The translations under genes were made by a program, and so were the position numbers. The notes under the pieces are model-generated. The model worked only from the letters and a program-made list of their open reading frames with translations, made no database searches and was not told the DNA's origin. From positions 1 to 28,651 of the forward strand of contig JACRLS010000128.1 in assembly GCA_016235225.1 (NCBI GenBank): DNA of 28,651 nt, written 5' to 3'. The stretch's first letter is position 1; every line of letters begins with the position of its first letter. Source of the stretch: Nitrospirota bacterium (lineage in GTDB: Bacteria; Nitrospirota; Nitrospiria; Nitrospirales; Nitrospiraceae). This document shows, piece by piece, positions 1,251 to 24,407 of this stretch.

Positions 1251-2033
1251 CTTTTCTCGCACAAGTTCCCACAACTTCGCATACTTGATGAAGGTGTAAT
1301 AGGCATAGAGCCCCGACAGGATCAGTCCCGGCGTCCCATCCAGAAAGCCGCCCCGGCCCAGGTACATCTTGAAGAAGGTGAAGGTCGGATGGGTGAACAG
1401 TTGGTGAGGCCTAAACCTCCGGCCTTGCTTGGCCATGCGCTCCGCCATCAGCCCGCTGTAGCGATCCATTTTCTCAAGATAATGATTCACGTCGCGAAAT
1501 GGATACTGGAGGACATGCTCACGGAGATAGCCGGCCTGCCCATTCAATTCGAACCCCTCGTGAACCGCTTCCTCGCGATAGCGTAGGCGGCTCTTCCGAA
1601 ATAACTGAGGCTGTCTGTAGTCCGGATACCAGCCGCAATGCCGAATCTGTCGCCCGAGGAAGAAGTTTTGCCGAGGCACAAAATACGCGTCGGCCTTGGG
1701 CCCCTCTTCCAACACCCGACGGATTTCATCCCGAATCTCCGGCGTGGCCCGCTCGTCCGTATCCAGGCTGAACACCCACTCGTGAGTCGCATGCGCGACC
1801 GCCTCGTTCCGCAGGCGTCCGAATCCATGGAACTCGTGTTGAAAGACCTTGTCGGTATACTCCTGGCTGATCTTCGCCGTGGCATCCGTGCTGTGAGAAT
1901 CCACCACGATGAGCTCATCGACCCAGCGAAGACTGTCCAGGCAGGGCCGCATGTTCGGTTCATCATTGTAGGCAATGACATAGGCCGAGACCTTGGTCTG
2001 GTTCATCTGGTTCATCTGGTTTGTCTGGTTCAT
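1230..2033 (-). CDS. Glycosyltransferase family 2 (WaaE/KdtX-like beta-1,4-glucosyltransferase family)
   Basis: YVIAYNDE..IVVDSHSTDAT..LDTDER..WYPDY..VHE; N-terminal MNQ repeats come from the nonamer array (alternative starts 2015, 2006). Confidence 0.85.
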   Translation of the reverse strand: MNQTNQMNQMNQTKVSAYVIAYNDEPNMRPCLDSLRWVDELIVVDSHSTDATAKISQEYTDKVFQHEFHGFGRLRNEAVAHATHEWVFSLDTDERATPEIRDEIRRVLEEGPKADAYFVPRQNFFLGRQIRHCGWYPDYRQPQLFRKSRLRYREEAVHEGFELNGQAGYLREHVLQYPFRDVNHYLEKMDRYSGLMAERMAKQGRRFRPHQLFTHPTFTFFKMYLGRGGFLDGTPGLILSGLYAYYTFIKYAKLWELVREKGDLVIW

Positions 2034-2127
2034 CTCGTGTGTCTGGTTCGTTTAGTTATCTGGATCAACCAAAGAAACGAGAAAAACCAGATCAACGAGA
2101 CAAAGGAGATCAACCACACAAACCTGG
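1998..2127. repeat. Inverted arrays of degenerate nonamers (CTGGTTYRT / AYRAACCAG)
   Basis: ctggttcat x2, ctggtttgt, ctggttcat, ctcgtgtgt, ctggttcgt (1998-2051); atcaaccaa agaaacgag aaaaaccag atcaacgag acaaaggag atcaaccac acaaacctg (2064-2126). Confidence 0.9.
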
Positions 2128-2130
2128 CTG

Positions 2131-3150
2131 CTAGACATGCTGGACTGTCACCGATTCAGCCCTCGTCAGCACAGATTGGATTCTGTCTGCCACGCCGTCC
2201 GCCGTGATCCGGTCCAGGCAATCCCAATAGGGACAGGCTTCGTAAATGCATTTCTCACAGGTCGGCACGTCGGGGCGGAGCACAAAGCCACGGCCCAGCG
2301 GCGCCCACCGGATCGGCAGATTGTTTCGGCGGGGATCGAACAGGCTGACGGTGGCCACCCCGAGCGCCGCAGCCATGTGCGCAGGACCGGTCGCGCCCGA
2401 AACGACCACCTGGCTCTGGGCGACCACGGCCATCAACTGTCTGACGGACAGACGGCCCATGAAGTCTTCAATGCCCTTGGTCGCACCCGGAGACCGGCCG
2501 ATTTCTTCCCGAAACCGATCCCCCTCTGCCTGATTGCCCGTCAACCCGACGGCAAGTCCCTCGGAGACCAGGCGCTGCACCAAATCCCAGTAGTGTCGGC
2601 TGGCCCAGCGACGGGCCGCAAACCCGCCTGGATGCAGAATGACACGGGGTGAGGGGATGGTAGCCAGGGTCGAAGCCGCCCATGCCCGTTCCTCCGGCGT
2701 CACGACCAGCCGCGGAGGCGCGACCGGCCCCGGTTCAATTCCCAGCCCGCGCAGCAGGCCCAGATTATACTCGGCTTCGTGCTTCGTGAAATCAGACCGG
2801 TGCTCATACACTCGTCGATTCGCGAACAGACCATACCATCGATAGCCGGTGGCCACCCGCTGCGGAACGCGGGCCCACCATGAGGCCATGATCAGCCGGC
2901 GAAAGGGCTTCAGAAAGAGTGCGACATCGATCTTCCTGCGAAAGAGCGCAACCAATTCAGCAAAAGACTCTTCTCCCGAAACAGTGACCACGTCATCGAG
3001 ATCAGGATGATGCGCCAGAACCGGCGCCGCATAGGCACTGGAGAGAAACATGATCCGGCTCTGAGGCTGCTGACGGCGCAGGGCGGACGCTACCGGCAGC
3101 GAGAGGATCTCGTCGCCGATGCCGTCTGGTCTGACGATCAGCACGTTCAT
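2131..3150 (-). CDS. Glycosyltransferase family 9 (heptosyltransferase-like)
   Basis: LIVRPDGIGDEILSLP, VILHPGG, VVSGATGPAHMAAALGVATVSLF: GT9 motifs. Confidence 0.9.
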   Translation of the reverse strand: MNVLIVRPDGIGDEILSLPVASALRRQQPQSRIMFLSSAYAAPVLAHHPDLDDVVTVSGEESFAELVALFRRKIDVALFLKPFRRLIMASWWARVPQRVATGYRWYGLFANRRVYEHRSDFTKHEAEYNLGLLRGLGIEPGPVAPPRLVVTPEERAWAASTLATIPSPRVILHPGGFAARRWASRHYWDLVQRLVSEGLAVGLTGNQAEGDRFREEIGRSPGATKGIEDFMGRLSVRQLMAVVAQSQVVVSGATGPAHMAAALGVATVSLFDPRRNNLPIRWAPLGRGFVLRPDVPTCEKCIYEACPYWDCLDRITADGVADRIQSVLTRAESVTVQHV

Positions 3151-3260: not shown

Positions 3261-4300
3261 CTCCCCTGCAGCACCTGCTGCACCGCGCGGAAGACGTCGG
3301 AGGGCGCGATGGCCGTCAGACATTCGAGCTGGCTCACATTGGTACAGCGCCGACTGAAACAGGGGCTACACGGAATACCCGCGCGCAAGACTTGATGGGA
3401 GGCTCCGTATGGCCCGGTTCTCGCCGGGCTGGTCGGGCCAAAGATGGCCACGACCGGGGTCCCCACCGCAGCGGCCACATGCATGGGCCCCGAATCGTTC
3501 GTCACCAACACCGCCGCCTTCCGCAGCAGTGCGGGCAGGAGACCGATTCCCGTCTGCCCCACAAGACTGATCGGCTGCTGCGCCATCAAGCGACTCACTG
3601 CATCGGCAGCCTCGCGCTCGCTGGGCGCTCCAAACAGTACCACCGGCCCGATTCCCGCTTCATTCAACTGGTCGATAAGCTTGGCGAAGGACTGGATGGG
3701 CCAGCATTTGGTCGGCCAGCGGGCCGACACATTCATCGCAATCCAGGGGCGATCAGATGTGATACCGCGGCGCGTTAACAGCAGGTTGACTGCCTCATCA
3801 TCGGTCCGCGGAATACTCAATCGAAATCGCGGGGTGGAAGGCCTTGGGGCCCCCAGAGCCTCGGCCACCAGGAGATACCGATCGACCGCGTGCATGTCGG
3901 GAGAGGGGACCGCCACGCGATGGGAATAGAAGAGGGGACTTCCCTCCCGTGCATCGGCAAACCCCAGCCGCACCGGCGCGCCACTGAGCCGCGCCATCAC
4001 TCCGCTCCGGAACAACCCCTGCAGATCAACCGCCAGATCGACGGCTTCCGCGCGCAAGCGAGGGACCTTCCCGAACCAGCCGCGAAGCCCCGGGGCTACC
4101 GCGCAAATCTCATCGACCCCCTCAACCCGCTGAACAAATCCGGCCCATTCCTGCTTAACCAGCCACGTAATCCTGGCCTGCGGAAAGCGACTCCGCAAGG
4201 CATCCAGCGTCGGCAGGGCGTGCACGATATCGCCCAACGAACTGGGCTTGATGAACAAGAGATGATGAACGTCTGAGACTGGCAGCACGACGTGGGTCAC
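3221..4300 (-). CDS. waaC: LPS heptosyltransferase I (GT9)
   Basis: FIKPSSLGDIVHALP, VDLQGLFRSG, TNDSGPMHVAAAVGTP; GTG start. Confidence 0.8.
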   Translation of the reverse strand: MTHVVLPVSDVHHLLFIKPSSLGDIVHALPTLDALRSRFPQARITWLVKQEWAGFVQRVEGVDEICAVAPGLRGWFGKVPRLRAEAVDLAVDLQGLFRSGVMARLSGAPVRLGFADAREGSPLFYSHRVAVPSPDMHAVDRYLLVAEALGAPRPSTPRFRLSIPRTDDEAVNLLLTRRGITSDRPWIAMNVSARWPTKCWPIQSFAKLIDQLNEAGIGPVVLFGAPSEREAADAVSRLMAQQPISLVGQTGIGLLPALLRKAAVLVTNDSGPMHVAAAVGTPVVAIFGPTSPARTGPYGASHQVLRAGIPCSPCFSRRCTNVSQLECLTAIAPSDVFRAVQQVLQGRAKVEAEGSALRH

Positions 4301-4388: not shown

Positions 4389-6014
4389 CTACCGCTCATC
4401 GATCCGTCGACACCCCTCCCCGGCCGTGACCTGGTACCGAACGCCGCAAGCTTCGCATAGCGCCCGGCCCCGTGTCACCTTCAATTTGACGCCGCAGGCA
4501 CACATCCAGCCCACGCGACGGGCCGGATTCCCGACCACCAGCGCATAGTCCGGCACCGATTTCGTGACCACTGCGCCCGCCCCTACAAAGGCGGACTGAC
4601 CGATCGTCACGCCACAGACAATCGTGCAGTTGGCGCCGAGTGTGGCCCCTTCGCGCACTCGCGTCAACTTCAGTTCGGCTTTTCGCGGGATCGCGCTCCG
4701 CGGATTGATGACATTCGTAAAGACCATGGCGGGCCCGCAGAACACGGCATCCTCCAACGTGACCCCTTCATAAATAGACACGTTATTCTGGATCTTCACT
4801 CCGTTGCCGATCGACACACGGGGGCCGATCACCACGTTCTGCCCGACGATACAGTTTCGACCGATCCGACTCCCGGCCAGCACGTGTGAGAAATGCCATA
4901 GCTTCGTGCCGGATCCGATCTCAGATGGCTGATCGACGATCGCGGTCGGATGAACCCAGACCCCAGCATGCCCCTCCCCCTTTCCCTCTCCCCCGAGGGG
5001 AAAGGGGGGGGTGAGGGGGACTGTCTCGCCCTCCCGAGTCAGTGACACCGCGACGCCTCGCAGATCGAGCGACTGCTGACTCGCCTGCAGCACTTCCAAG
5101 ACTGCAAGGGCCTCACGACCGTCGGTCCGCGCGGTGGTCCGATGTTCGACACACTCGAGGAAATGGCGACACTCGGCGGCCAGCGGCTCCTCCGACTCCA
5201 GCGGCACGACTTCCGCATTGCCCCGATGGGCCACCGGAGCTCGATCAACCCACGACACTTCGTGGGGATAGAGCACCAATTTGTCCTTGGCCAGATCATC
5301 GAACACGGCCATCTTTCGATCCCCGATGACCACCAGTCGCTGTTCCTTCACAGGGTGCAGCCAGCTCACAAAGATATGGCCCCTGACGCCGTTCGAAAAG
5401 GCCAGATGCGTCATGGTGACGTCCGGCACCCCGGTTTGCAGATAGGTCCCCCCGTTCGCCTGCACTGCCACCGGCAGCTGTCCGACGAGATGAATGAGTG
5501 TGGAGATATCGTGTGGAGCGAAGCTCCACAGAATATTCTCTTCACGGCGAAATTTGCCGATGTTCAGCCGGTTCGAATAGGCATACTGCAGCTTGCCCAG
5601 CTCGCCTTTGGCGATCAGCGCATTCAGCGCCACAACGGCCGGATGGTAGCGCAGCACGTGGCCGACCATGAGAATGCGCTGCAGCCGCGACGCCAGATCC
5701 ACCACTTCCCGGCCTTCCGCGAGGGCCAGCGCCAGCGGCTTTTCGACAAAGACGTCCTTGCCGGCCAGCAGGGCCTGTTTGGCCATGGCGGCGTGCGTTT
5801 TTGCCGGCGTTGCCAGGACCACGGCGGCAATCGTTGGATCAGCGAGGACCCGCTCGTAGGAGGCGACCATCGGCACGTCGGGGAAATGCTTCGCCGCCCG
5901 CTTCAGAGCGTTCGGATCGTCGTCGCAGATCGCCTGCAACGCGCCCATCGTGCCAAAGTTTCGGACCAGGTTCGCGCCCCAGGCGCCCGCTCCGACACAG
6001 GCCACCCTGATCAT
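4389..6014 (-). CDS. Fused Gfo/Idh/MocA oxidoreductase (WbpB/WlbA-like) + hexapeptide N-acetyltransferase (WbpD/WlbB-like)
   Basis: N-terminal VGAGAWG, FVEKP, MVGHVL, APHD; C-terminal [36 protein letters not shown]. Confidence 0.85.
4971..5020. repeat. G/C-rich REP-like palindrome inside the coding linker
   Basis: cccctccccctttccc ... gggaaagggggggg tgagggg; translated as [16 protein letters not shown]. Confidence 0.7.
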
Positions 6015-7753
6015 GCCTGCCTCCAGTCAAAGGTCGTCTGCACCGAGACTGCCTCATGTCCGCCCCCTGCCGCGTCCTGCTCGATCCAGGACACCGCCTC
6101 CACAAGCGACTCGGCCGTATGGTGAGGCAGCAGCGATCGTTCCTGCAGATCGCGAACCGCCTGGGCACTCGTCGGGCCGGTCGTGACGAGGACCGCTTTG
6201 ACCCCGACCCGATGACCAAGCTCAATGTCCCGACTCTGATCGCCCACGATATAGGCCCTGGTCAGATCAATCCCCAAATCTCGCTTCGCCCGCTCGACCA
6301 TGAGGGTGCCGGGCTTGCGACAGAGACAGCCATCGTCGGGATGGTGCGGACAAAAGTAGATCGCATCCAGCCAGCCGCCTGCCTGAGCCAACATGTCCTT
6401 GAGCCGGCCATGCGTCGCCTCCAGCACCTCCGGCGTAAACATTCCTCGCCCGATGCCGGACTGATTGGTAATCAAGATCACGCGGGCACCCGTCCGATTG
6501 AGTCGCGCCACGGTGTCCGCCGCTCCGGGTAGAAGGGTCAATTCCAGCGGATTCGTCACATAGCCGGATTCATGGTTCAGCGTTCCGTCCCGATCCAGAA
6601 AGACCGTCACGCCCTTGAGCGGCAGGCGCCGGCCGGCAATCCAGGACGAGCGCGCATTGGACGCCGCATCCCTGGCCGAGTCCTTCACGGTCGGGGAAGC
6701 GGCATCGGGGGACCGGATCATCAGCTTGAGCGAGGCGGTGTAGACCATCTCGACCGTCACGCCCGACATGCAGCGGTGATCGATGGGACATTCGCGCAGG
6801 AGGCAGGGCGCACAGTCCACCGGGTATCGGATCAGCTCATGACCCGGTCCGGCCGGCGCTGTGCTCCGCCAATCCGTCGGCCCGAAGACCGCCACCGTCG
6901 GCACCCCGAAGGCGCTCGCGATGTGCATGGGCCCCGTATCGTTGGTCAGGAACAGGTTGCACCGGCGGGTCACGCCCATCAACTCCCGTATGGTCGTCTG
7001 CCCGGACCACACCAGCGATCTCGCCTTCATCCGAGCGGCAATCTCCTGTCCCAAGGCCTCTTCTCCTCGCGCCCCGACGATGATGACCCAGGCGCGGTCT
7101 CGCCCCACCTCGTGGATGAGACGATCCGCGGTGTCCGCAAAGCGTTCAGGCCACCAGCGCTTGGCGCCACCGTAGACCGAGCCGGGATTGAGCCCGAGCA
7201 CAAAATCCCGGCCATCGATGCCGGCCGCCGACAGTCGATCCGTCATCCGTCGGTCTTCGTGGTCTTTGAGATACAGGCGAGGCGGCGCCGGGTCGCCCTC
7301 CACGCCCAGACGATGGAGCATGTCATGGTAATACCGAATCTGATGAGCGGGCCGCGTCCGATCCGGAACCGGGACCGGATGGGAGAGCAAGACCGACCGG
7401 CCGTCAGTCGCGTACCCGAATCGCCGCCGGATGCCCGCCATCCAAGTAATCAACGCCCCCTCAAACGCATTCTGAAAGAGCACGGCCAGGTCAAAACGAT
7501 CCCGCCGCAGCCGGCGCGCGAGATGCCACTTGCCGGACACACCGGCATGCCGCCCACGGTGATCATAGACCACCGTCGCCTGGACGGCCGGATGGCCATC
7601 AAGCAGCTCGGCGATCGTCGGTCGGGCCAGCAGCGTCAGCGGCGTCTCGGGAAAGGCCCGATGGAGCGCCGACAAGGCGGGCTCACACATGATCGCATCG
7701 CCGATCCAGTTCGGCACCCGAACCAGGATCCGGCGGATCTGATCTATTTTCAC
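6011..7753 (-). CDS. waaF: Fused LPS heptosyltransferase II (WaaF) + D-glycero-D-manno-heptose 1,7-bisphosphate phosphatase (GmhB)
   Basis: [33 protein letters not shown]; then the HAD motif [14 protein letters not shown] and [14 protein letters not shown]. Confidence 0.9.
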
Positions 7754-7798: not shown

Positions 7799-8940
7799 GC
7801 AGGATCGTCTCTTTGCGCACCAGTCCGGGGGACCATCAGCAGCCGGTCAAGCTCCGCCTCGCCATCCAACACCTCAACCCCCAGCCGGACAACCCGGCAC
7901 AGCCGCTCCAACTCGGGTCCCAGGGCGAGTCGCGCCAGCTTGGCCGCATCTTTTTCCGTCGTCAGCACATAGTCGGCGTGGGCGCGACGAGCCACATCCA
8001 TGAGGCGTTCGGCATCTCGAAGCGAATAGCGATGGTGATCCGGCCAGGCGACTGCATCTACGACCGTGACGTGCAAGCGGTCGACATCACGACGAAACGC
8101 GCGGGGATTCGCAATGCCGCATCCGGTCACCACTCGCGCGCCCCGAATCCCGTCGATCGCGGTGGTGGTTCCGCCCTGGAGATCCGTCAGGGCCTCGTGG
8201 AAGAATCGCAACTGAATGGTCGGCCTTGCGGGCACCCGCGCTCGTGCCAGACGAGACAACAAGGCCGCGCTTCCGTGAGGCGTCTCGGCCCTGGTCACCA
8301 CGATGGCCGAGGCCCGGGATGCCGCCGTGAGCGGCTCGCGTAGCCGTCCCGCAGGGAGCAGTTGATCCAGGCTCGCCGGCGCGCTGGCGTCCAGCAGCAG
8401 CAGATTCACGTCCCGATCGAGGCTGAGATGCTGGAATCCATCATCCAGCACGAGTACGTCGAGGGGGATCTGGTTCAACACCCACCCGCCCAATCTCGCG
8501 CGGTCGGCTCCCACCGCGACCACCGCCTGAGGACATCGCCGGGCAATCAGGTACGGCTCATCCCCCCCCTCATCCGGGCCGAGGAGCGTGCGCCGCCCAT
8601 CTGATACCAGGGCCATGTCTTGCGAGCCTGATCGCCGATAGCCCCGACTCAGGATCCCGACGCGATAGCCCTGCTCGATCAATCGCGACGCCACGAAGAT
8701 GGTCACGGGCGTCTTGCCGGTTCCCCCGACCGTCACGTTGCCGATACTGATGACACGACAGGGCAGCGCATGACGAGCGAAGAGCCCGGCTCGGTACCCA
8801 CCGGCGCGAAGGCGCACGGCCGCGCCATAGACCCAGGACAGCGGAGTCAAGCAGGTCCGAAGGGGCCATGACAGCATCGGCTCACCGGCGGAACAGGAGC
8901 CGGAACAGACCTGACCGCCGGTCGTCCGGTGGGCGGTCAT
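7786..8940 (-). CDS. lpxK: Tetraacyldisaccharide 4'-kinase
   Basis: ISIGNVTVGGTGKTP, LSRGY, LDDGFQH, LPAGRLREP, PDHH, TTEKD; ATGA overlap with the waaA stop. Confidence 0.95.
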   Translation of the reverse strand: MTAHRTTGGQVCSGSCSAGEPMLSWPLRTCLTPLSWVYGAAVRLRAGGYRAGLFARHALPCRVISIGNVTVGGTGKTPVTIFVASRLIEQGYRVGILSRGYRRSGSQDMALVSDGRRTLLGPDEGGDEPYLIARRCPQAVVAVGADRARLGGWVLNQIPLDVLVLDDGFQHLSLDRDVNLLLLDASAPASLDQLLPAGRLREPLTAASRASAIVVTRAETPHGSAALLSRLARARVPARPTIQLRFFHEALTDLQGGTTTAIDGIRGARVVTGCGIANPRAFRRDVDRLHVTVVDAVAWPDHHRYSLRDAERLMDVARRAHADYVLTTEKDAAKLARLALGPELERLCRVVRLGVEVLDGEAELDRLLMVPRTGAQRDDPASRP

Positions 8941-10358
8941 GCTCGGACCAATTGAGAGGCCTCTGTCCGATCGGAGTTCAGAATGCCTTGCACGAACTCC
9001 ACGCTCCGTCGCAGTGCACCTCGATTTTCCGTCACCACCAGAGAGGCGGCACGGCCCATGGCTTCACGCCGCTTTCCATCGCGTATCAGTTGTTCCGCTT
9101 CTCCGCCGAATTCCCGACCATCACGAATCCGAGCGCCGGCCCCCGCCTCCAAGGGAAGCGAGGCCAGTTCCTCGCAATGGTCCGTGTAGGGGCCGAACAG
9201 CACCGGCTTTCCCCATAAGGCTGGCTCCAGAAGATTGTGTCCACCGACCGGCACGAGGGTCCCCCCCACGAAGGCCACCGTGGCGTGCCGATAGACCGAC
9301 GCGAGTTCCCCTCGCGTATCCAGAATCACGACCCGCCCGGCTCCCGCCGGTGGGAGTGACCTCCCGTCCGTCATCTCGCTCCGTCGCTGGACGGCCAGTC
9401 CGCGCCCCCGCACCACGACATCGAGATCGGAGGCCCGCTCGATATGCCGGGGTGCTATGACCAGCACCGTCTCTGGATGGTGTGCGAGGATGCTCTCGTA
9501 CCCATCCAGAATCTGCTCTTCTTCACCTGGATGAGTGCTCCCTGCCACCAGCACCGGAGTCTGATCGCGGATGTCGAGGCCCGCACGCGTGATATCTTTT
9601 ATAAGGGATGTGCCGCTCCCGACAGTCTGGTCAAACTTGAGGTTACCGACCCGAACAACGCGGGCCGGATCGGCGCCCAACGCGATGATCCGCATGGCGT
9701 CACGTTCGGATTGCATCAGGAACAGGCGGATATGGGAGAGCACCTGGGCCATCAAGGGTCGAATCCGACGATAGCCCTCGAACGACCGTGAGGACAACCG
9801 CCCGTTGATCATGACACAGGGCACGCCGCGGCGATGCAAGGTCCGCAATAGATTCGGCCAGAGTTCGGTTTCCACAAAGACAAACAGCCGCGGATTCAGG
9901 AGGCGGACGACACGCCGGACGACCCAGGGAAAATCGAGCGGGGCATAGCAATGGTCCGCCACGCCCTTCAGTCGCTGTTCGACCGCTTCCCGGCCTGTTT
10001 CGGTCACTGTAGAGACGACCAACCGGTCCTGCGGATACCGCCGTCGCAGCTCTTGCACCAAGGGCACGACGGCAACGGCCTCGCCCAGCGACACCGCATG
10101 GACCCAGATGACCGGTTGATTTGGTTGATCTGGTTTGTCTCGTTTTTCTGGTTTGTGTGGTTCCTTGGTCCGGAGCCAGCCAGATAAACGAGAAAAACCA
10201 CATGAACCAGAAAAACCAGACAAACTGGACGGACCAGATGAACCAGATAACCCGAGTCTTTCGAGCAACCCTCGCCGGCAACGCTTCTTCACCAGCAAGA
10301 TGCCCAGAATAATCGGTGAGGCGATAAGCAGCAGGCCGTTATAGAGGAAGTACCACAT
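8937..10358 (-). CDS. waaA: 3-deoxy-D-manno-octulosonic acid (Kdo) transferase carrying an in-frame repeat insertion
   Basis: WVHAVSLGE, ETELWPN, VGNLKFD, AGSTHPGEE, APRHIER, GGHNLLEPA. Confidence 0.95.
   Translation of the reverse strand: MWYFLYNGLLLIASPIILGILLVKKRCRRGLLERLGLSGSSGPSSLSGFSGSCGFSRLSGWLRTKEPHKPEKRDKPDQPNQPVIWVHAVSLGEAVAVVPLVQELRRRYPQDRLVVSTVTETGREAVEQRLKGVADHCYAPLDFPWVVRRVVRLLNPRLFVFVETELWPNLLRTLHRRGVPCVMINGRLSSRSFEGYRRIRPLMAQVLSHIRLFLMQSERDAMRIIALGADPARVVRVGNLKFDQTVGSGTSLIKDITRAGLDIRDQTPVLVAGSTHPGEEEQILDGYESILAHHPETVLVIAPRHIERASDLDVVVRGRGLAVQRRSEMTDGRSLPPAGAGRVVILDTRGELASVYRHATVAFVGGTLVPVGGHNLLEPALWGKPVLFGPYTDHCEELASLPLEAGAGARIRDGREFGGEAEQLIRDGKRREAMGRAASLVVTENRGALRRSVEFVQGILNSDRTEASQLVRA
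10112..10256. repeat. Inverted nonamer arrays inside waaA (same family as 1998-2127)
   Basis: ccggttgat ttggttgat ctggtttgt ctcgttttt ctggtttgt gtggttcct; then ataaacgag aaaaaccac atgaaccag aaaaaccag acaaactgg acggaccag atgaaccag ataacccga. Confidence 0.9.
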
Positions 10359-10370
10359 GGAGAAAAGTAT

Positions 10371-10456
10371 GATTGAGTGATTCGGGGATTTGGTGATTAT
10401 CCGAACGGAGGAACTTCCGGTTCTGTCACTTCACCACATCATCAGATCGCCAAATC
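10371..10456. repeat. Inverted octamer arrays (same family as 1158-1250)
   Basis: gattgagt gattcggg gatttggt gattat; spacer; accacatc atcagatc gccaaatc. Confidence 0.75.
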
Positions 10457-11115
10457 TTACTTTCTCGCCTGTTCCTCCGCCAGCACCGTTAATCGGTTGA
10501 GGGCGTCCTGAAGTTCCGCGCACTTCGCGTCAAGTTCCTCATCCGTCGCTTCTGAGGCGACCGATATCGGCTGCCCGACCAGGAAGGCGCCCCGGCTGAA
10601 CGGCATCGGCAACTGGAAACGGTCCCAACTGGCGAGGGTTTTTTTTTTGCGTAGGCCACGGCCACCGGAACGATCGGCAGCCCTGTCGCCTTGGCCAGAT
10701 AGACCGCGCCCCGCTGCGCCGTATGGCGAGGCCCTCGTGGCCCGTCTGGCGTGACGATCAGGTCTCGCGCGCTCCGGCCTAATTCAACCAATCGGCGCAA
10801 GGCCACGGCGCCGCCACGGCTGGTCGACCCCCGGACCGCCTCAAGTCCGAACCGCGCGGCAATCCGGGCGATTAACTCGCCATCCCGATGGCGGCTGATC
10901 AGTACAGACGCGCCGGGGCCGTGATAGAACAGCGGCATCATCAACTGCTGGTCATGCCAGAAGGCGACAATCACGGAACGCTGCCCCCTGACCGTCTCAA
11001 AGGCTTCCCCACCCTTTTGAACATCCAGGCGAAGCGTGCGGCCGATCATGCGAATCAGCCAGGCCCCGAAACCGGGAATCAACATCAGCTTCAGCCGATT
11101 GATCATGTCGCGCAT
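10457..11115 (-). CDS. DUF374 / lysophospholipid acyltransferase family protein; needs a -1 shift at an A10 tract for full length
   Basis: Frame 0 has FWH, LISRHRDGELI, VRGSTSRGG, TPDGPRGP. The -1 frame after A10 reads TLASWDRFQLPMPFSRG...EEQARK and stops at 10457. Confidence 0.85.
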
Positions 11116-11124
11116 GGCATCTTT

Positions 11125-11161
11125 CTCAGCACTCAGCACTCAGCACTCAGCACTCAGCACT
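11125..11161. repeat. Perfect heptamer tandem repeat (CTCAGCA)5
   Basis: Five exact copies at 11125-11159; one degenerate inverted unit ttagtgctta at 11171-11180. Confidence 0.95.
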
Positions 11162-21891: not shown

Positions 21892-24407
21892 ATGAGCTCT
21901 GATCCGACCGAAAAAGACATTCAAAACGCCGAGATTCCAGACCAGTTGCCGCTCTTGCCGGTCAGGGACATCGTCGTGTTCCCCTACATGGTGCTGCCGC
22001 TCTTCGTCGGTCGAGAGATGTCCATCAAGGCGATCGAGGCCGCGCTCGCCGGCAACCGCATGGTCTTTCTGGCGACGCAAAAGGCGCTGGACGTGGAGAA
22101 TCCTTCACCCGACGAGATCCACCCCGTGGGCACCGTCGGCATCATCATGCGGATGCTCAAACTGCCGGACGAGCGCATCAAGATTCTGGTGCACGGACTC
22201 GCCAAGGCCAAGGCGACGGAGTACATCCAGTCGGAGCCTTATTATTCGGTCAAGATTGCGAAGATCGTCGAAGCCAAACCGGCGACCAATCTGGAAGGCG
22301 AAGCCGTCATGCGGACGGTGAAGGAGCAGCTTGAGCGCATCGTCAGTCTGGGCAAAGTGCTCATGCCCGACGTGATGGTGGTCATCGAGAACCTCGAGGA
22401 CCCTGGCCGCCTGGCCGACATGGTGGCGTCCAATCTTGGATTGAAGGTCGAAGTCACTCAGGAGGTGCTCGAGATCGAGGATTCGATCGGCCGCTTCAAA
22501 CGTGTGAGCGAGATTCTCGCCAAAGAAGTCGAAGTCCTCTCCATGCAGCAGAAGATCCAGGCGCAAGCCAAGGGGGAGATGGACAAGACGCAGCGGGAGT
22601 ACTTCCTCCGCGAGCAACTCAAGGCCATCCAGAAGGAATTGGGCGAGCTGGACGAACGGTCGGAAGAGATTGCCGAGTTCCGCAAGCGCCTCAAAGACGC
22701 CAAGATGCCCGAGAAAGTGCTGAAGGAATGCGAGAAGCAGGTCAAGCGGCTCGAGAAGATGCATCCCGACACGGCCGAGTCCGCCACCGTCCGCACGTAT
22801 CTGGAGTGGATGGTCGACCTGCCCTGGAGCAAGAAGTCGAAGGACAACCTCGACATCAAGGCAGCCGCGAAGGTCCTCAATGAGGACCACTTCGATCTGG
22901 AGAAGGTGAAGGAGCGGATTCTGGAATACCTGGCCGTTCGCAAGCTGAAAGACAAGATGAAGGGCCCGATCCTCTGCTTTGCCGGCCCCCCGGGCGTCGG
23001 AAAAACGTCGCTGGGCAAGTCGATTGCGCGCGCCCTGGGCCGGGAGTTCGTCCGCGTGAGCTTAGGCGGTGTTCGAGATGAAGCCGAGATTCGCGGCCAT
23101 CGTCGCACCTACGTCGGCGCCCTCCCTGGACGCATCATCCAAGGCATCAAACAGGCCGGGACCAGCAATCCGGTCTTCATGCTGGATGAGATCGACAAGG
23201 TCGGCGCGGACTTCCGGGGAGACCCCTCGGCGGCCTTGCTGGAAGTGCTGGATCCCGAACAGAACCATGCCTTCAGCGACCACTATCTGGGCGTTCCCCT
23301 TGATCTGTCCGAGGTCATGTTCATTACGACCGCGAATGTGATCGACCCGATCATCTCCGCGCTGCGGGACCGAATGGAGATTATCGAGATTCCAGGGTAC
23401 ACCGAGGAGGAAAAGCTGGGCATCGCCCTCAAGTACTTGATTCCGCGGCAGCTAAAAGAACACGGGATTACCGACGCCCATATCGCGATCACGGAGCCGG
23501 CTCTTCGCCAACTCATTTCGCAATATACGCGGGAAGCGGGCGTTCGCAACCTCGAACGGGAAGTGGCCCGCGTGATGCGGAAAGTCGCCAAGAAGGTCGC
23601 AGAAGGTAAAGTCCGCTGTTACGCCGTCACGCCCACCAACCTCTCCAAGTACCTCGGGGTGCCGAAGTATCTCCCCGACCGAAGTATCTCCCCGACACGG
23701 AGCAGACCAAGGACGAGATCGGCGTGGCCACGGGCCTGGCCTGGACGGAAACGGGCGGCGACGTCCTCTATATCGAAGCGACGGCCATGAAGGGAAAAGG
23801 CGGGCTGACGTTGACCGGACACTTGGGCGACGTCATGAAGGAATCCGCCCATGCCGCACTGAGTTATATCCGCGCGAAACAAAAAACCCTCGGGATCAAA
23901 GAGGATGTCTTTTCCAAGTTCGATCTCCACATCCATGTCCCGGCCGGCGCCATCCCCAAAGACGGGCCGTCCGCCGGCATTACGATGGCCACCGCGTTGA
24001 CCTCGATCCTGACCAACACGCCGGTCCGGCGCAACGTGGCCATGACGGGCGAAGTGACGTTGCGAGGGCGCGTGTTGCCGATCGGAGGCCTCAAAGAAAA
24101 AATCCTGGCCGCCAAGCGCGCCAAGATGACGACGGTCATCCTCCCCAAGCGGAACGAAAAGGATCTCCAGGAAATCCCCAAGCATCTGCAACGGGGCCTG
24201 CGCTTTGCCTTTGCCGACACTATGGACGACGTGCTTCGGGTCGCCCTGGCGCGAACCTCTCCGCCACGGGCCAAGGGTCGGACATCCGGGACAGCCCGCC
24301 GCCAGAAACCGGTCCGCCCCCGACATCCGACGCCCACGCCCCTCGTCCCGCCGAAGGGCACACCAAGGCCAAGACCGATCGCCCCCACCCTGTCGGTCCG
24401 CGCATAG
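21892..24407 (+). pseudogene. lon: ATP-dependent Lon protease, frameshifted by a 17-bp tandem duplication between the AAA+ and protease domains
   Basis: LPLLPVRD N-domain, GPPGVGKTS Walker [22 protein letters not shown] (catalytic Ser), GGLKEK (catalytic Lys). Confidence 0.9.
23662..23695 (+). repeat. Exact 17-bp tandem duplication CCGAAGTATCTCCCCGA
   Basis: Copies at 23662-23678 and 23679-23695; removing one restores [25 protein letters not shown]. Confidence 0.97.

What the first reader, a model, noticed from the sequence alone, without database searches (positions are those of the whole stretch)
10112..10256. Palindromic nonamer element translated in frame inside the Kdo transferase WaaA
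Seen: ~145 nt of inverted 9-mer arrays sit between the N-terminal anchor (RRGLLERLG) and the conserved WVHAVSLGE motif. They add ~45 residues, GLSGSSGPSSLSGFSGSCGFSRLSG-WLRT-KEPHKPEKRDKPDQPNQP, as (xSG)n and (xxP)n tripeptides. The same DNA family is intergenic at 1998-2127. A 9-nt unit lets copy number change without a frameshift. Established parallel: Rickettsia palindromic elements insert in frame into ORFs. Inference: a repeat element domesticated as a variable-length linker in a normally essential enzyme.
Basis: partly seen in the sequence, partly recalled or inferred. Interest (0 to 1): 0.75.

Follow-up and report, generated by a model that had tools for sequence, protein, structure and literature searches.

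The report
Hairpin repeat translated inside WaaA linker
A small hairpin-forming DNA repeat built from 9-base units sits in frame in the Kdo transferase gene of Nitrospira, where it is read as a floppy, length-variable linker; it resembles the palindromic elements in Rickettsia genes, but it turns over fast and is tied to a wider, poorly understood repeat system.

Summary
Window 10112-10256 holds two inverted arrays of 9-nt units, TCTGGTTNN and its complement. They lie in frame in waaA (8937-10358, minus strand), between the membrane anchor and the first strand of the catalytic domain. The RNA fold is -72 kcal/mol (z = -6.5).

It is one copy of a dispersed Nitrospiraceae hairpin family: about 8 copies in this MAG and about 35 in a relative, nearly all intergenic.

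- **Replacement, not insertion.** The element replaces the ancestral 12-residue linker. There is no target-site duplication.
- **Predicted disorder.** AlphaFold2 gives pLDDT below 50 for residues 40-77.
- **Variable length.** Across Nitrospiraceae the linker runs from 12 to 46 residues.
- **Haplotypes ignore the gene tree.** AU tests give p <= 2e-7.
- **Unit variant tracks the genome.** GGTT/AACC or GGTC/GACC matches the genome's dispersed copies.
- **A second in-frame site.** The GT9 heptosyltransferase-GmhB linker carries the element in three genera.
- **Wider class.** Inverted short-tandem arrays bracket every PF05635 four-helix-bundle gene examined (19 of 19).

Most likely this is a tolerated selfish or neutral repeat that turns over by recombination, not a proven domestication. 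It is a new variant of a known kind (Rickettsia RPE-like). Earlier notes of this scan reported the same repeat class on other Nitrospira DNA, but not this in-frame use.

The parts
8937..10358 (-). waaA (Kdo transferase), 473 aa, read through the element without a stop
   Evidence: ORF. Pfam PF04413, E 2e-65, from residue 78. PDB 2xci aligns from residue 82.
10290..10355 (-). N-terminal membrane-anchor helix (residues 2-23), followed by the conserved KKRCRRGLxERLG motif
   Evidence: AF2 helix 2-23, pLDDT 88-89. Invariant and near-invariant columns.
10179..10250 (-). 5' arm on the coding strand: 8 units of TCTGGTTNN read as x-S-G (residues 37-60)
10167..10178 (-). Centre (loop) of the palindrome, read as WLRT (residues 61-64)
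10113..10166 (-). 3' arm on the coding strand: 6 units of NNAACCAGA read as (K/E/Q)-P-(D/E) (residues 65-82)
10101..10258 (-). Whole predicted hairpin, including 9-nt stem extensions in the flanking RLG and IWV codons
   Evidence: strand folding: -72.4 kcal/mol, z -6.48.
1996..2127 (.). Second, non-coding copy of the same nonamer family. It fills the gap between a GT9 gene (2131-3150) and a GT2 gene (1230-2033) and may overlap the GT2 start.
6011..7753 (-). GT9 heptosyltransferase-GmhB-like HAD fusion. Its inter-domain linker lacks the element here but carries it in frame in three other genera.
   Evidence: Pfam. Linker comparison.

Best explanation
**What it is.** The stretch is a cargo-less copy of a Nitrospiraceae foldback repeat family. 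Each copy is a run of TCTGGT(T/C)NN units, a short centre, and a run of the complementary units. The family belongs to a broader class of inverted short-tandem-repeat arrays. In their full form these arrays bracket small PF05635 four-helix-bundle genes. As bare hairpins they fill gaps between genes.

**How it sits in waaA.** One copy occupies the linker between the membrane anchor and the GT-B catalytic domain of WaaA, in place of the ancestral 12 residues. It survives there for three reasons.
- The linker is structurally permissive.
- The 9-nt unit keeps the frame whenever the unit number changes.
- In the frame used, the arms encode stop-free, flexible, hydrophilic tripeptides: x-S-G, then K/R-P-D.

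**How it changes.** The copy turns over quickly. Units are gained and lost in each arm, and whole linker haplotypes, including the element-free one, are exchanged between related backbones by short-tract recombination or gene conversion. The unit variant stays in step with the genome's other copies.

**Shown:** family membership, in-frame reading, replacement of the linker, predicted disorder, length and haplotype variation that conflicts with the gene tree, a second in-frame site, and the PF05635 link.

**Inferred:** that the peptide is neutral or merely tolerated, and that recombination rather than re-insertion drives the turnover.
For: **Family.**
- 8 copies in this MAG.
- 20 of 61 family genomes hit, with reversed-pattern controls at about 0; up to 103 pattern hits (about 35 elements) in G006.
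- 14 to about 25 dispersed matches at 72-88% identity to the waaA copy in G011 and G024.
- Nearly all copies are intergenic. In G006, 33 of 35 have no supported spanning gene.

**In frame.**
- All 9 species representatives that carry the element or a short form of it keep waaA in frame.
- 111 of 148 WaaA rows carry a linker of 20 residues or more.
- DNA of orthologous inserts is palindromic, -30 to -60 kcal/mol.

**Replacement.** The element-free L087 and element-bearing L088 share flanks but have different 36-nt and 72-nt linkers and no duplication.

**Disorder.** AF2 pLDDT is 29-49 over residues 40-77, with coil throughout.

**Turnover.**
- Six element-free rows need 6 changes on a well-supported 752-column tree.
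- AU tests reject grouping by linker haplotype, p 2e-7 to 6e-58.
- K-type against R-type inserts need 18 changes, against 20.2 for shuffled labels.

**Concerted variant.** GGTC/GACC appears in waaA, in the GT9-GmhB copy, in the PF05635 cassette and in the dispersed copies of G011. GGTT/AACC appears in G000, G006 and G024.

**Second in-frame site.** The GT9-[element]-GmhB linker carries the element in G006, G024 and G011, in open frames of 471+, 621 and 612 aa.

**Class.**
- At least 61 inverted tandem arrays in this genome.
- 19 of 19 PF05635 genes have inverted-complementary flanks above the 99th percentile of 400 control windows.
Against: - Neutrality is not demonstrated. The element persists in waaA across many genera, and two linker sites in LPS enzymes carry it, which could reflect selection.
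- No mobility mechanism is identified. No transposase is associated with the family, and Y1_Tnp was not found in G006 or G000.
- No near-identical donor copy was found in four genomes.
- Haplotype-tree conflict rests largely on metagenomic contigs, where strain mixing at a repeat could create some chimeras.
- The AU groups were named after the tree had been seen.
- A sliding identity scan of one +/- pair showed no clear recombination breakpoint.
Confidence: 0.6

Rival explanations
1. **Functional nucleic-acid hairpin.** The long stem inside the operon mRNA (msbA-DUF374-waaA-lpxK...) is kept because it acts on RNA or DNA. It could slow ribosomes just after the anchor helix emerges, aiding membrane targeting. 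It could set mRNA stability or processing. Or it could bind a factor that recognises the nonamer. The peptide would then be a by-product.
For: - The predicted stem is very stable and extends into conserved flanking codons.
- Both arms are always kept, at roughly equal length, in all orthologues with DNA in hand.
- The T-to-C change in one arm is matched by A-to-G in the other.
- The unit variant is uniform across a genome's copies, as expected if one trans-acting factor reads them.
- Intergenic copies often abut start codons.
Against: - Many close relatives do well with the plain 12-residue linker.
- The second in-frame site does not follow a membrane anchor, so a targeting pause cannot be general.
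- Arms built from one repeated unit pair in many registers, so complementarity is cheap.
- There is no Rfam match and no expression data.
Confidence: 0.15
2. **Adaptive protein linker.** The S-G / K-P-D segment is selected at the protein level as a tunable spacer between the membrane and the catalytic domain. Discrete haplotypes would be kept by diversifying or balancing selection.
For: - Only the hydrophilic x-S-G frame of the 5' arm is used, at both coding sites.
- The T-to-C variant is synonymous (Leu) in arm 1 and conservative (K to R, N to D) in arm 2.
- Several distinct haplotypes recur on different backbones.
Against: - The segment is predicted to be disordered, with no conserved residues beyond those the DNA unit dictates.
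- Length ranges over 12-46 residues with no optimum.
- Element-free alleles are common.
- A cytoplasmic linker is an unlikely target of balancing selection.
- Frame choice is explained just as well by purifying selection against stops and hydrophobic frames.
Confidence: 0.1
3. **Local origin.** The array grew in place by slippage from native codons that already resemble the unit (CTGGGC in RLG, TCTGGGTC in IWV). It only resembles the dispersed family by convergence.
For: - Both native flanks resemble nonamer units.
- Some element-free linkers hold small GC-rich palindromes.
- Many unit families in the genome are single-locus.
Against: - The same unit, the same arm order and the same genome-specific variant occur at dozens of unrelated loci.
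- The same family sits in a second gene's linker in three genera.
- Flank similarity fits homology-guided acquisition just as well.
Confidence: 0.08
4. **Assembly or binning artefact.** The insert is a mis-join at a repeat.
For: The source is a fragmented MAG (317 contigs, 70% complete). Repeats of this family occur on other contigs in the same runs.
Against: - Two runs give contigs that bridge the element with 0-1 differences.
- More than 100 independent assemblies from many sources carry an in-frame element at the same site.
Confidence: 0.02

Closest known systems
Rickettsia palindromic elements (RPE; Ogata et al. 2000, 2002, as summarised in review PMC10969869)
   Same: Both are dispersed palindromic repeats of about 100-150 bp, found between genes and in frame inside unrelated genes for essential functions. 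Both are translated as an extra peptide at a structurally permissive place.
   Different: - There is no sequence relation and the phylum is different.
- The arms here are tandem 9-nt units, so length varies in frame, whereas an RPE encodes a fixed conserved peptide.
- In-frame copies are rare here (2 sites against about 35 copies in one genome), whereas they are frequent for RPEs.
- This element replaces a linker, and its haplotypes are exchanged between lineages.
Paired (convergent) arrays of heptamer repeats: GGGAATC in Xanthomonas (Rehm et al. 2015, PMC4692102). Related simple arrays: TAACTGA in Beggiatoaceae and cyanobacteria (PMC4679880).
   Same: Both have 6-9-nt units in tandem arrays of variable copy number, often as two convergent arrays able to form a stem-loop. 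Both are mostly intergenic and close to gene ends.
   Different: - The unit here is 9 nt and not G4-prone.
- Here the arrays are translated inside genes. The heptamers are under-represented in coding DNA and cannot change copy number in frame.
- Those papers, as searched, do not report a link to PF05635 genes.
REP / REPIN elements with RAYT (Y1) transposases
   Same: Both are short dispersed imperfect palindromes in intergenic DNA, with many copies per genome.
   Different: - There is no conserved GTAG/CGTC head.
- The arms are periodic.
- No Y1_Tnp gene was found in the richest genome, G006, or in G000.
MITEs (for example Correia, ERIC, Coxiella QMITE)
   Same: Both are small, non-autonomous-looking, hairpin-forming repeats that occasionally make in-frame fusions.
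   Different: - The filled-versus-empty waaA comparison shows no target-site duplication.
- There are no unique terminal inverted repeats.
- No parent IS is known.
PF05635 ('23S rRNA intervening sequence protein', four-helix-bundle) gene cassettes
   Same: In the five Nitrospiraceae genomes examined, these genes are bracketed by inverted short-tandem arrays. One in G011 is bracketed by the nonamer family itself.
   Different: The waaA copy carries no gene. What the protein does, and whether it acts on the arrays, is unknown.

Membership tests
Nitrospiraceae nonamer foldback family (TCTGGTYNN)n-centre-(NNRACCAGA)n | Two inverted arrays of the 9-nt unit, G+T-rich arm first on either strand | tested here: met
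   all 28 palindromic copies listed share this order.
Nitrospiraceae nonamer foldback family (TCTGGTYNN)n-centre-(NNRACCAGA)n | Dispersed in many copies within a genome and across related genomes | tested here: met
   The reversed-pattern control gave about 0 for the GGTT form.
Rickettsia palindromic elements | Sequence homology to an RPE family, and occurrence in Rickettsia | not tested
   No RPE sequence was compared. The organism is a Nitrospira. Filed as 'works like', not as a member.
Rickettsia palindromic elements | In-frame insertion in protein-coding genes that leaves the ORF intact | tested here: met
   waaA and the GT9-GmhB linker in three genera.
REP/REPIN-RAYT | An associated Y1 (RAYT) transposase gene in the genome | tested here: not met
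   No PF01797 match in G006 (95% complete, about 35 elements) or in G000. It is present in G024, G060 and G067.
REP/REPIN-RAYT | A conserved GTAG or CGTC head on a 20-40-bp palindrome | tested here: not met
   The arms are periodic TCTGGTY units with no such head.
MITE | Target-site duplication flanking the insertion | tested here: not met
   L087 (empty) against L088 (filled): the linker is replaced and there is no duplication. This is a single pair.
MITE | A parent IS with matching terminal inverted repeats | not tested
   No search was made for an IS with these ends.
Inverted short-tandem-repeat arrays bracketing PF05635 genes | A PF05635 gene flanked by mutually complementary tandem arrays | tested here: met
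   19 of 19 genes exceed the 99th percentile of 400 control windows. TRF confirmed 8 of 19 against 1 of 300 controls.
Inverted short-tandem-repeat arrays bracketing PF05635 genes | The nonamer family itself occurs as such a bracket | tested here: met
   G011:C3:123111-123431 lies between GGTC-type nonamer arrays. No such case was seen for the GGTT form in G000 or G006.
WaaA / Kdo transferase (PF04413, GT30) | The family domain, with the conserved HAVSLGE motif after the linker | tested here: met

The most novel reading that the evidence does not exclude
The inverted tandem arrays are the working ends of an undescribed copy-or-conversion system, possibly run by the PF05635 four-helix-bundle proteins that they bracket. 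This system would write hairpin arrays into sites that resemble the unit, and would keep all copies in a genome homogenised. The WaaA and GT9-GmhB linkers would then be recurrent targets, where the system overwrites coding DNA and generates cassette-like linker alleles in essential LPS enzymes.
Probability: 0.2. Interest if true: 0.85.

Novelty: new variant of a known kind. Interest (0 to 1): 0.6.

Why it matters
Translated palindromic repeats in essential genes have been treated as a Rickettsia curiosity. Here the same outcome appears in free-living nitrifiers, with a repeat whose 9-nt periodicity makes it frame-safe by construction.

The element gives a natural series of linker alleles, 12 to 46 residues long, in WaaA. 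That series can be used to ask how much spacer a membrane-anchored glycosyltransferase tolerates.

Three findings together make the long-unexplained short-unit repeat arrays of bacteria testable as an active system rather than slippage debris. Haplotypes are shuffled across backbones. The unit variant is uniform within a genome. PF05635 genes are bracketed by the same kind of arrays.

Tried and rejected
- **phmmer of the insert peptide.** The 48-residue peptide was searched against 1.8 billion representatives. The only hit was an unrelated 4644-aa repeat protein, so this did not find other coding copies.
- **Rfam.** No match at gathering threshold over the window.
- **RAYT association.** Not supported.
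- **Ectopic donor search.** No near-identical copy in G000, G006, G011 or G024.
- **Sliding nucleotide identity, L087 against L088.** The apparent high identity upstream of the element was not exceptional at the scale of the whole locus. It is not used as evidence for a breakpoint.
- **Other spanning open frames in G006 elements.** Most had no Pfam support and look like spurious high-GC frames. The G000 C156 copy is intergenic.
- **P0032.** This looked like a broken waaA but is only a short gene call on an intact, element-free gene.
- **TRF-based test of PF05635 bracketing.** Too insensitive (8 of 19), so it was replaced by a local-alignment test.
- **Expression.** No RNA holder was listed for this stretch, and only contigs, not reads, could be laid. 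Neither expression nor within-sample length variation could be assessed.
- **The look-up of encoding contigs for the window's own WaaA.** Nothing was returned.
- **Reversed-pattern control for the GGTC unit.** Not valid, because the reversed unit is the same repeat in another phase.

Full report
**1. The observation**

Window 9900-10500 shows, on the + strand, a run of GGTTNNTCT-type nonamers at 10112-10163. A 16-nt centre follows, and then a run of the complementary units at 10180-10254. Tandem Repeats Finder reports period-9 arrays on both sides, and the repeat finder reports 49-51-nt inverted arms that are 78-80% complementary.

The coding-strand RNA folds to -72.4 kcal/mol, against -44.9 +/- 4.2 for dinucleotide shuffles (z -6.5, 0 of 200 shuffles as low). 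The stem extends 9 nt into the flanking RLG and IWV codons.

The minus-strand ORF 8937-10358 (473 aa) runs through the element. The element is read as eight x-S-G triplets, WLRT, then six (K/E/Q)-P-(D/E)-type triplets.

- Pfam PF04413 begins at residue 78.
- Aquifex WaaA (2xci) aligns from residue 82.
- AlphaFold2, run with a 48-sequence alignment, gives an N-terminal helix at residues 2-23, a first strand at 83-87, and coil with pLDDT 29-49 over residues 40-77.
- Logan contigs from two groundwater runs of one study bridge the element with 0-1 differences and no gaps. One of these runs may be the MAG's own source. A mis-join private to the MAG is therefore unlikely.

**2. The setting**

The genome is a Nitrospira MAG of 2.34 Mb in 317 contigs, 70% complete and 61% GC.

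The first 15 kb of the window is one minus-strand lipid A / LPS-core run: lpxB, msbA, DUF374, waaA, lpxK, a GT9-HAD (GmhB-like) fusion, a GFO/hexapeptide fusion, two GT9 genes and a GT2 gene.

**3. A dispersed family**

A 9-nt-phase scan finds 8 nonamer palindromes or half-palindromes in the MAG. One is the copy at 1996-2127, which fills the GT9/GT2 gap.

A four-unit pattern with up to 3 mismatches hits 20 of 61 Nitrospiraceae species genomes, while the reversed control gives about 0. Counts reach 103 in G006, 36 in G060 and 26 in G024.

All 28 complete copies inspected have the same order, G+T-rich arm first, with centres of 0-33 nt.

In G006, 33 of 35 elements have no supported gene spanning them, and many abut start codons. 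Examples are a MacB-type permease and a DUF4160 gene.

No Rfam family matches. No Y1/RAYT transposase was found in G006 or G000.

**4. Orthologues**

In 40 relatives, the three other families of the order all have a 12-14-residue linker of the type (W/F)xLPxxxxxxxx. Within Nitrospiraceae, 9 of 24 sampled genera-level genomes carry the element or a short form of it, always in frame.

Among 148 WaaA rows, the linker is 12-46 residues long and 111 rows carry the element. Where DNA was read, the inserts are palindromic, -30 to -60 kcal/mol for the full-length inserts.

Close relatives differ by whole units in either arm. The window has 8 + 6 units, P0002 has 5 + 6, and P0004 has 4 + 3.

**5. Replacement, not insertion**

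Element-free relatives inside element-bearing clades share a conserved 12-residue linker (LRLPRGSRDGEP and variants) that is homologous to the outgroup linker.

DNA of such a pair was compared: L087 without the element and L088 with it. The 36-nt linker is replaced by a 72-nt element. There is no duplication, and the flanking R-L-G codons have shifted to A/T-rich synonyms.

**6. Turnover**

A careful tree was built on 752 columns with the linker excluded. The six element-free rows need six changes (bootstrap range 6-6).

Near-identical insert haplotypes sit on different, well-supported branches. AU tests reject uniting them:
- P0012 + P0030, p 2e-7;
- P0013 + P0044, p 1e-53;
- the five element-free rows, p 6e-58.

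These groups were named after the tree had been seen. The N-terminal 30 residues follow the clade, not the insert, so the exchanged tract is short.

In a 59-row clade, K-P-D-type and R-P-D-type inserts need 18 changes, against 20.2 for shuffled labels. For example, P0048 and P0097 versus P0073 are less than 0.03 substitutions per site apart, yet their linkers are unrelated, including the 4-residue prefix.

**7. Concerted unit variant**

In G011, G007 and G019 the waaA units are GGTC/GACC, a paired change in both arms. It is Leu-synonymous in arm 1 and K-to-R in arm 2.

The dispersed copies in those same genomes are of the GGTC type, while G000, G001, G006, G024 and G060 are GGTT. G015 is mixed. 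No near-identical donor copy exists in four genomes.

**8. A second in-frame site**

GT9-HAD fusions are standard in this lineage. In G006, G024 and G011 the inter-domain linker of that fusion is a nonamer element, read as x-S-G triplets and then N-Q-T triplets. In the GGTC genome the second arm reads D-Q-T. The frames are open for 471+, 621 and 612 aa.

The window, L087 and L088 have an ordinary linker there.

At both coding sites the G+T-rich arm is read in the only one of its three frames that is not strongly hydrophobic.

**9. The wider class**

TRF finds 1590 short arrays in the MAG. At least 61 loci are inverted pairs, with periods of 7, 6, 8 and 9 nt.

Earlier notes of this scan pointed to PF05635 four-helix-bundle genes bracketed by such arrays, and I tested that lead. 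Five genomes hold 2-8 such genes each. All 19 genes inspected have inverted-complementary flanks above the 99th percentile of 400 control windows. One in G011 is bracketed by the nonamer family itself.

Elements cluster in the LPS regions: G011:C3 at 123-136 kb and G006:C10 at 35-61 kb. Arrays at gene junctions come and go between L087 and L088.

**10. Reading**

The best-supported account is a selfish or neutral foldback repeat tolerated in two permissive linkers. It is frame-safe because its unit is 9 nt, and it is limited to hydrophilic, stop-free frames. It turns over by unit slippage plus short-tract exchange.

A role for the stem on RNA or DNA, or a tuned protein spacer, remains possible. 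Common element-free alleles and the absence of a membrane anchor at the second site weaken both.

**11. Known relatives**

The Rickettsia RPE is the nearest parallel for the outcome (PMC10969869). Convergent heptamer pairs in Xanthomonas (PMC4692102) and TAACTGA arrays (PMC4679880) are nearest for the architecture.

Searches found no paper on Nitrospira nonamer hairpins, on their translation, or on PF05635 bracketing.

The element is therefore a new variant of a known kind. It carries an open question: what keeps the copies uniform, and what swaps the linker alleles?

Noticed in passing
window 11125-11161: A perfect 5.3-copy heptamer array (CTCAGCA) lies in the msbA/DUF374 junction. It is one of many short arrays at gene junctions in this run.
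   Followed up: no
whole genome G000: TRF finds 1590 short tandem arrays. At least 61 loci are inverted pairs of arrays (34 with period 7, 15 with period 6, 8 with period 8, 4 with period 9). Many unit families occur at a single locus.
   Followed up: partly
L104-L123 (G000, G006, G024, G011, G019): Every PF05635 four-helix-bundle gene inspected (19 of 19) is bracketed by inverted short-tandem arrays, each with its own unit. There are 2-8 such genes per genome.
   Followed up: yes
L068, L130, L131; window 6011-7753: The GT9 heptosyltransferase-GmhB-like fusion is standard in this lineage. In three genera its inter-domain linker is replaced by the nonamer element in frame. The window's own copy has an ordinary linker.
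   Followed up: yes
P0012-P0064 (about 800-aa proteins); L087, L088: In one clade, waaA is fused to lpxK (PF04413 + PF02606). The window has two separate genes that overlap by 4 nt.
   Followed up: no
L087 vs L088, positions about 760-860 and 3860-4030: Heptamer arrays are present at two gene junctions in one relative and absent in the other, where the genes abut or overlap. Junction arrays are therefore gained or lost between genomes whose WaaA-LpxK proteins are 87% identical.
   Followed up: partly
G011:C3 123-136 kb; G006:C10 35-61 kb: Nonamer elements cluster in and around the lipid A / LPS-core gene run: 5-6 within 13-25 kb, against a genome mean of about one per 77 kb in G006.
   Followed up: partly
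window 10636-10663: The bridging contig of run X1 differs from the window by G>A at 10636, next to the T-run in DUF374 that another first-stage note flagged. A loose end with a T9 run begins near 10663.
   Followed up: no
window 23662-23696: TRF reports an exact 17-nt tandem duplication (2.1 copies). Another first-stage note flagged it as splitting lon.
   Followed up: no
right ends of several G006 elements (L066, L073, L076, L080) and L131: Several copies share a short tail after the last unit (AAACCTCTTCTT-like). In waaA, the A/T-rich E-R-L-G codons beside the element resemble its complement. This may mark the true element end.
   Followed up: no
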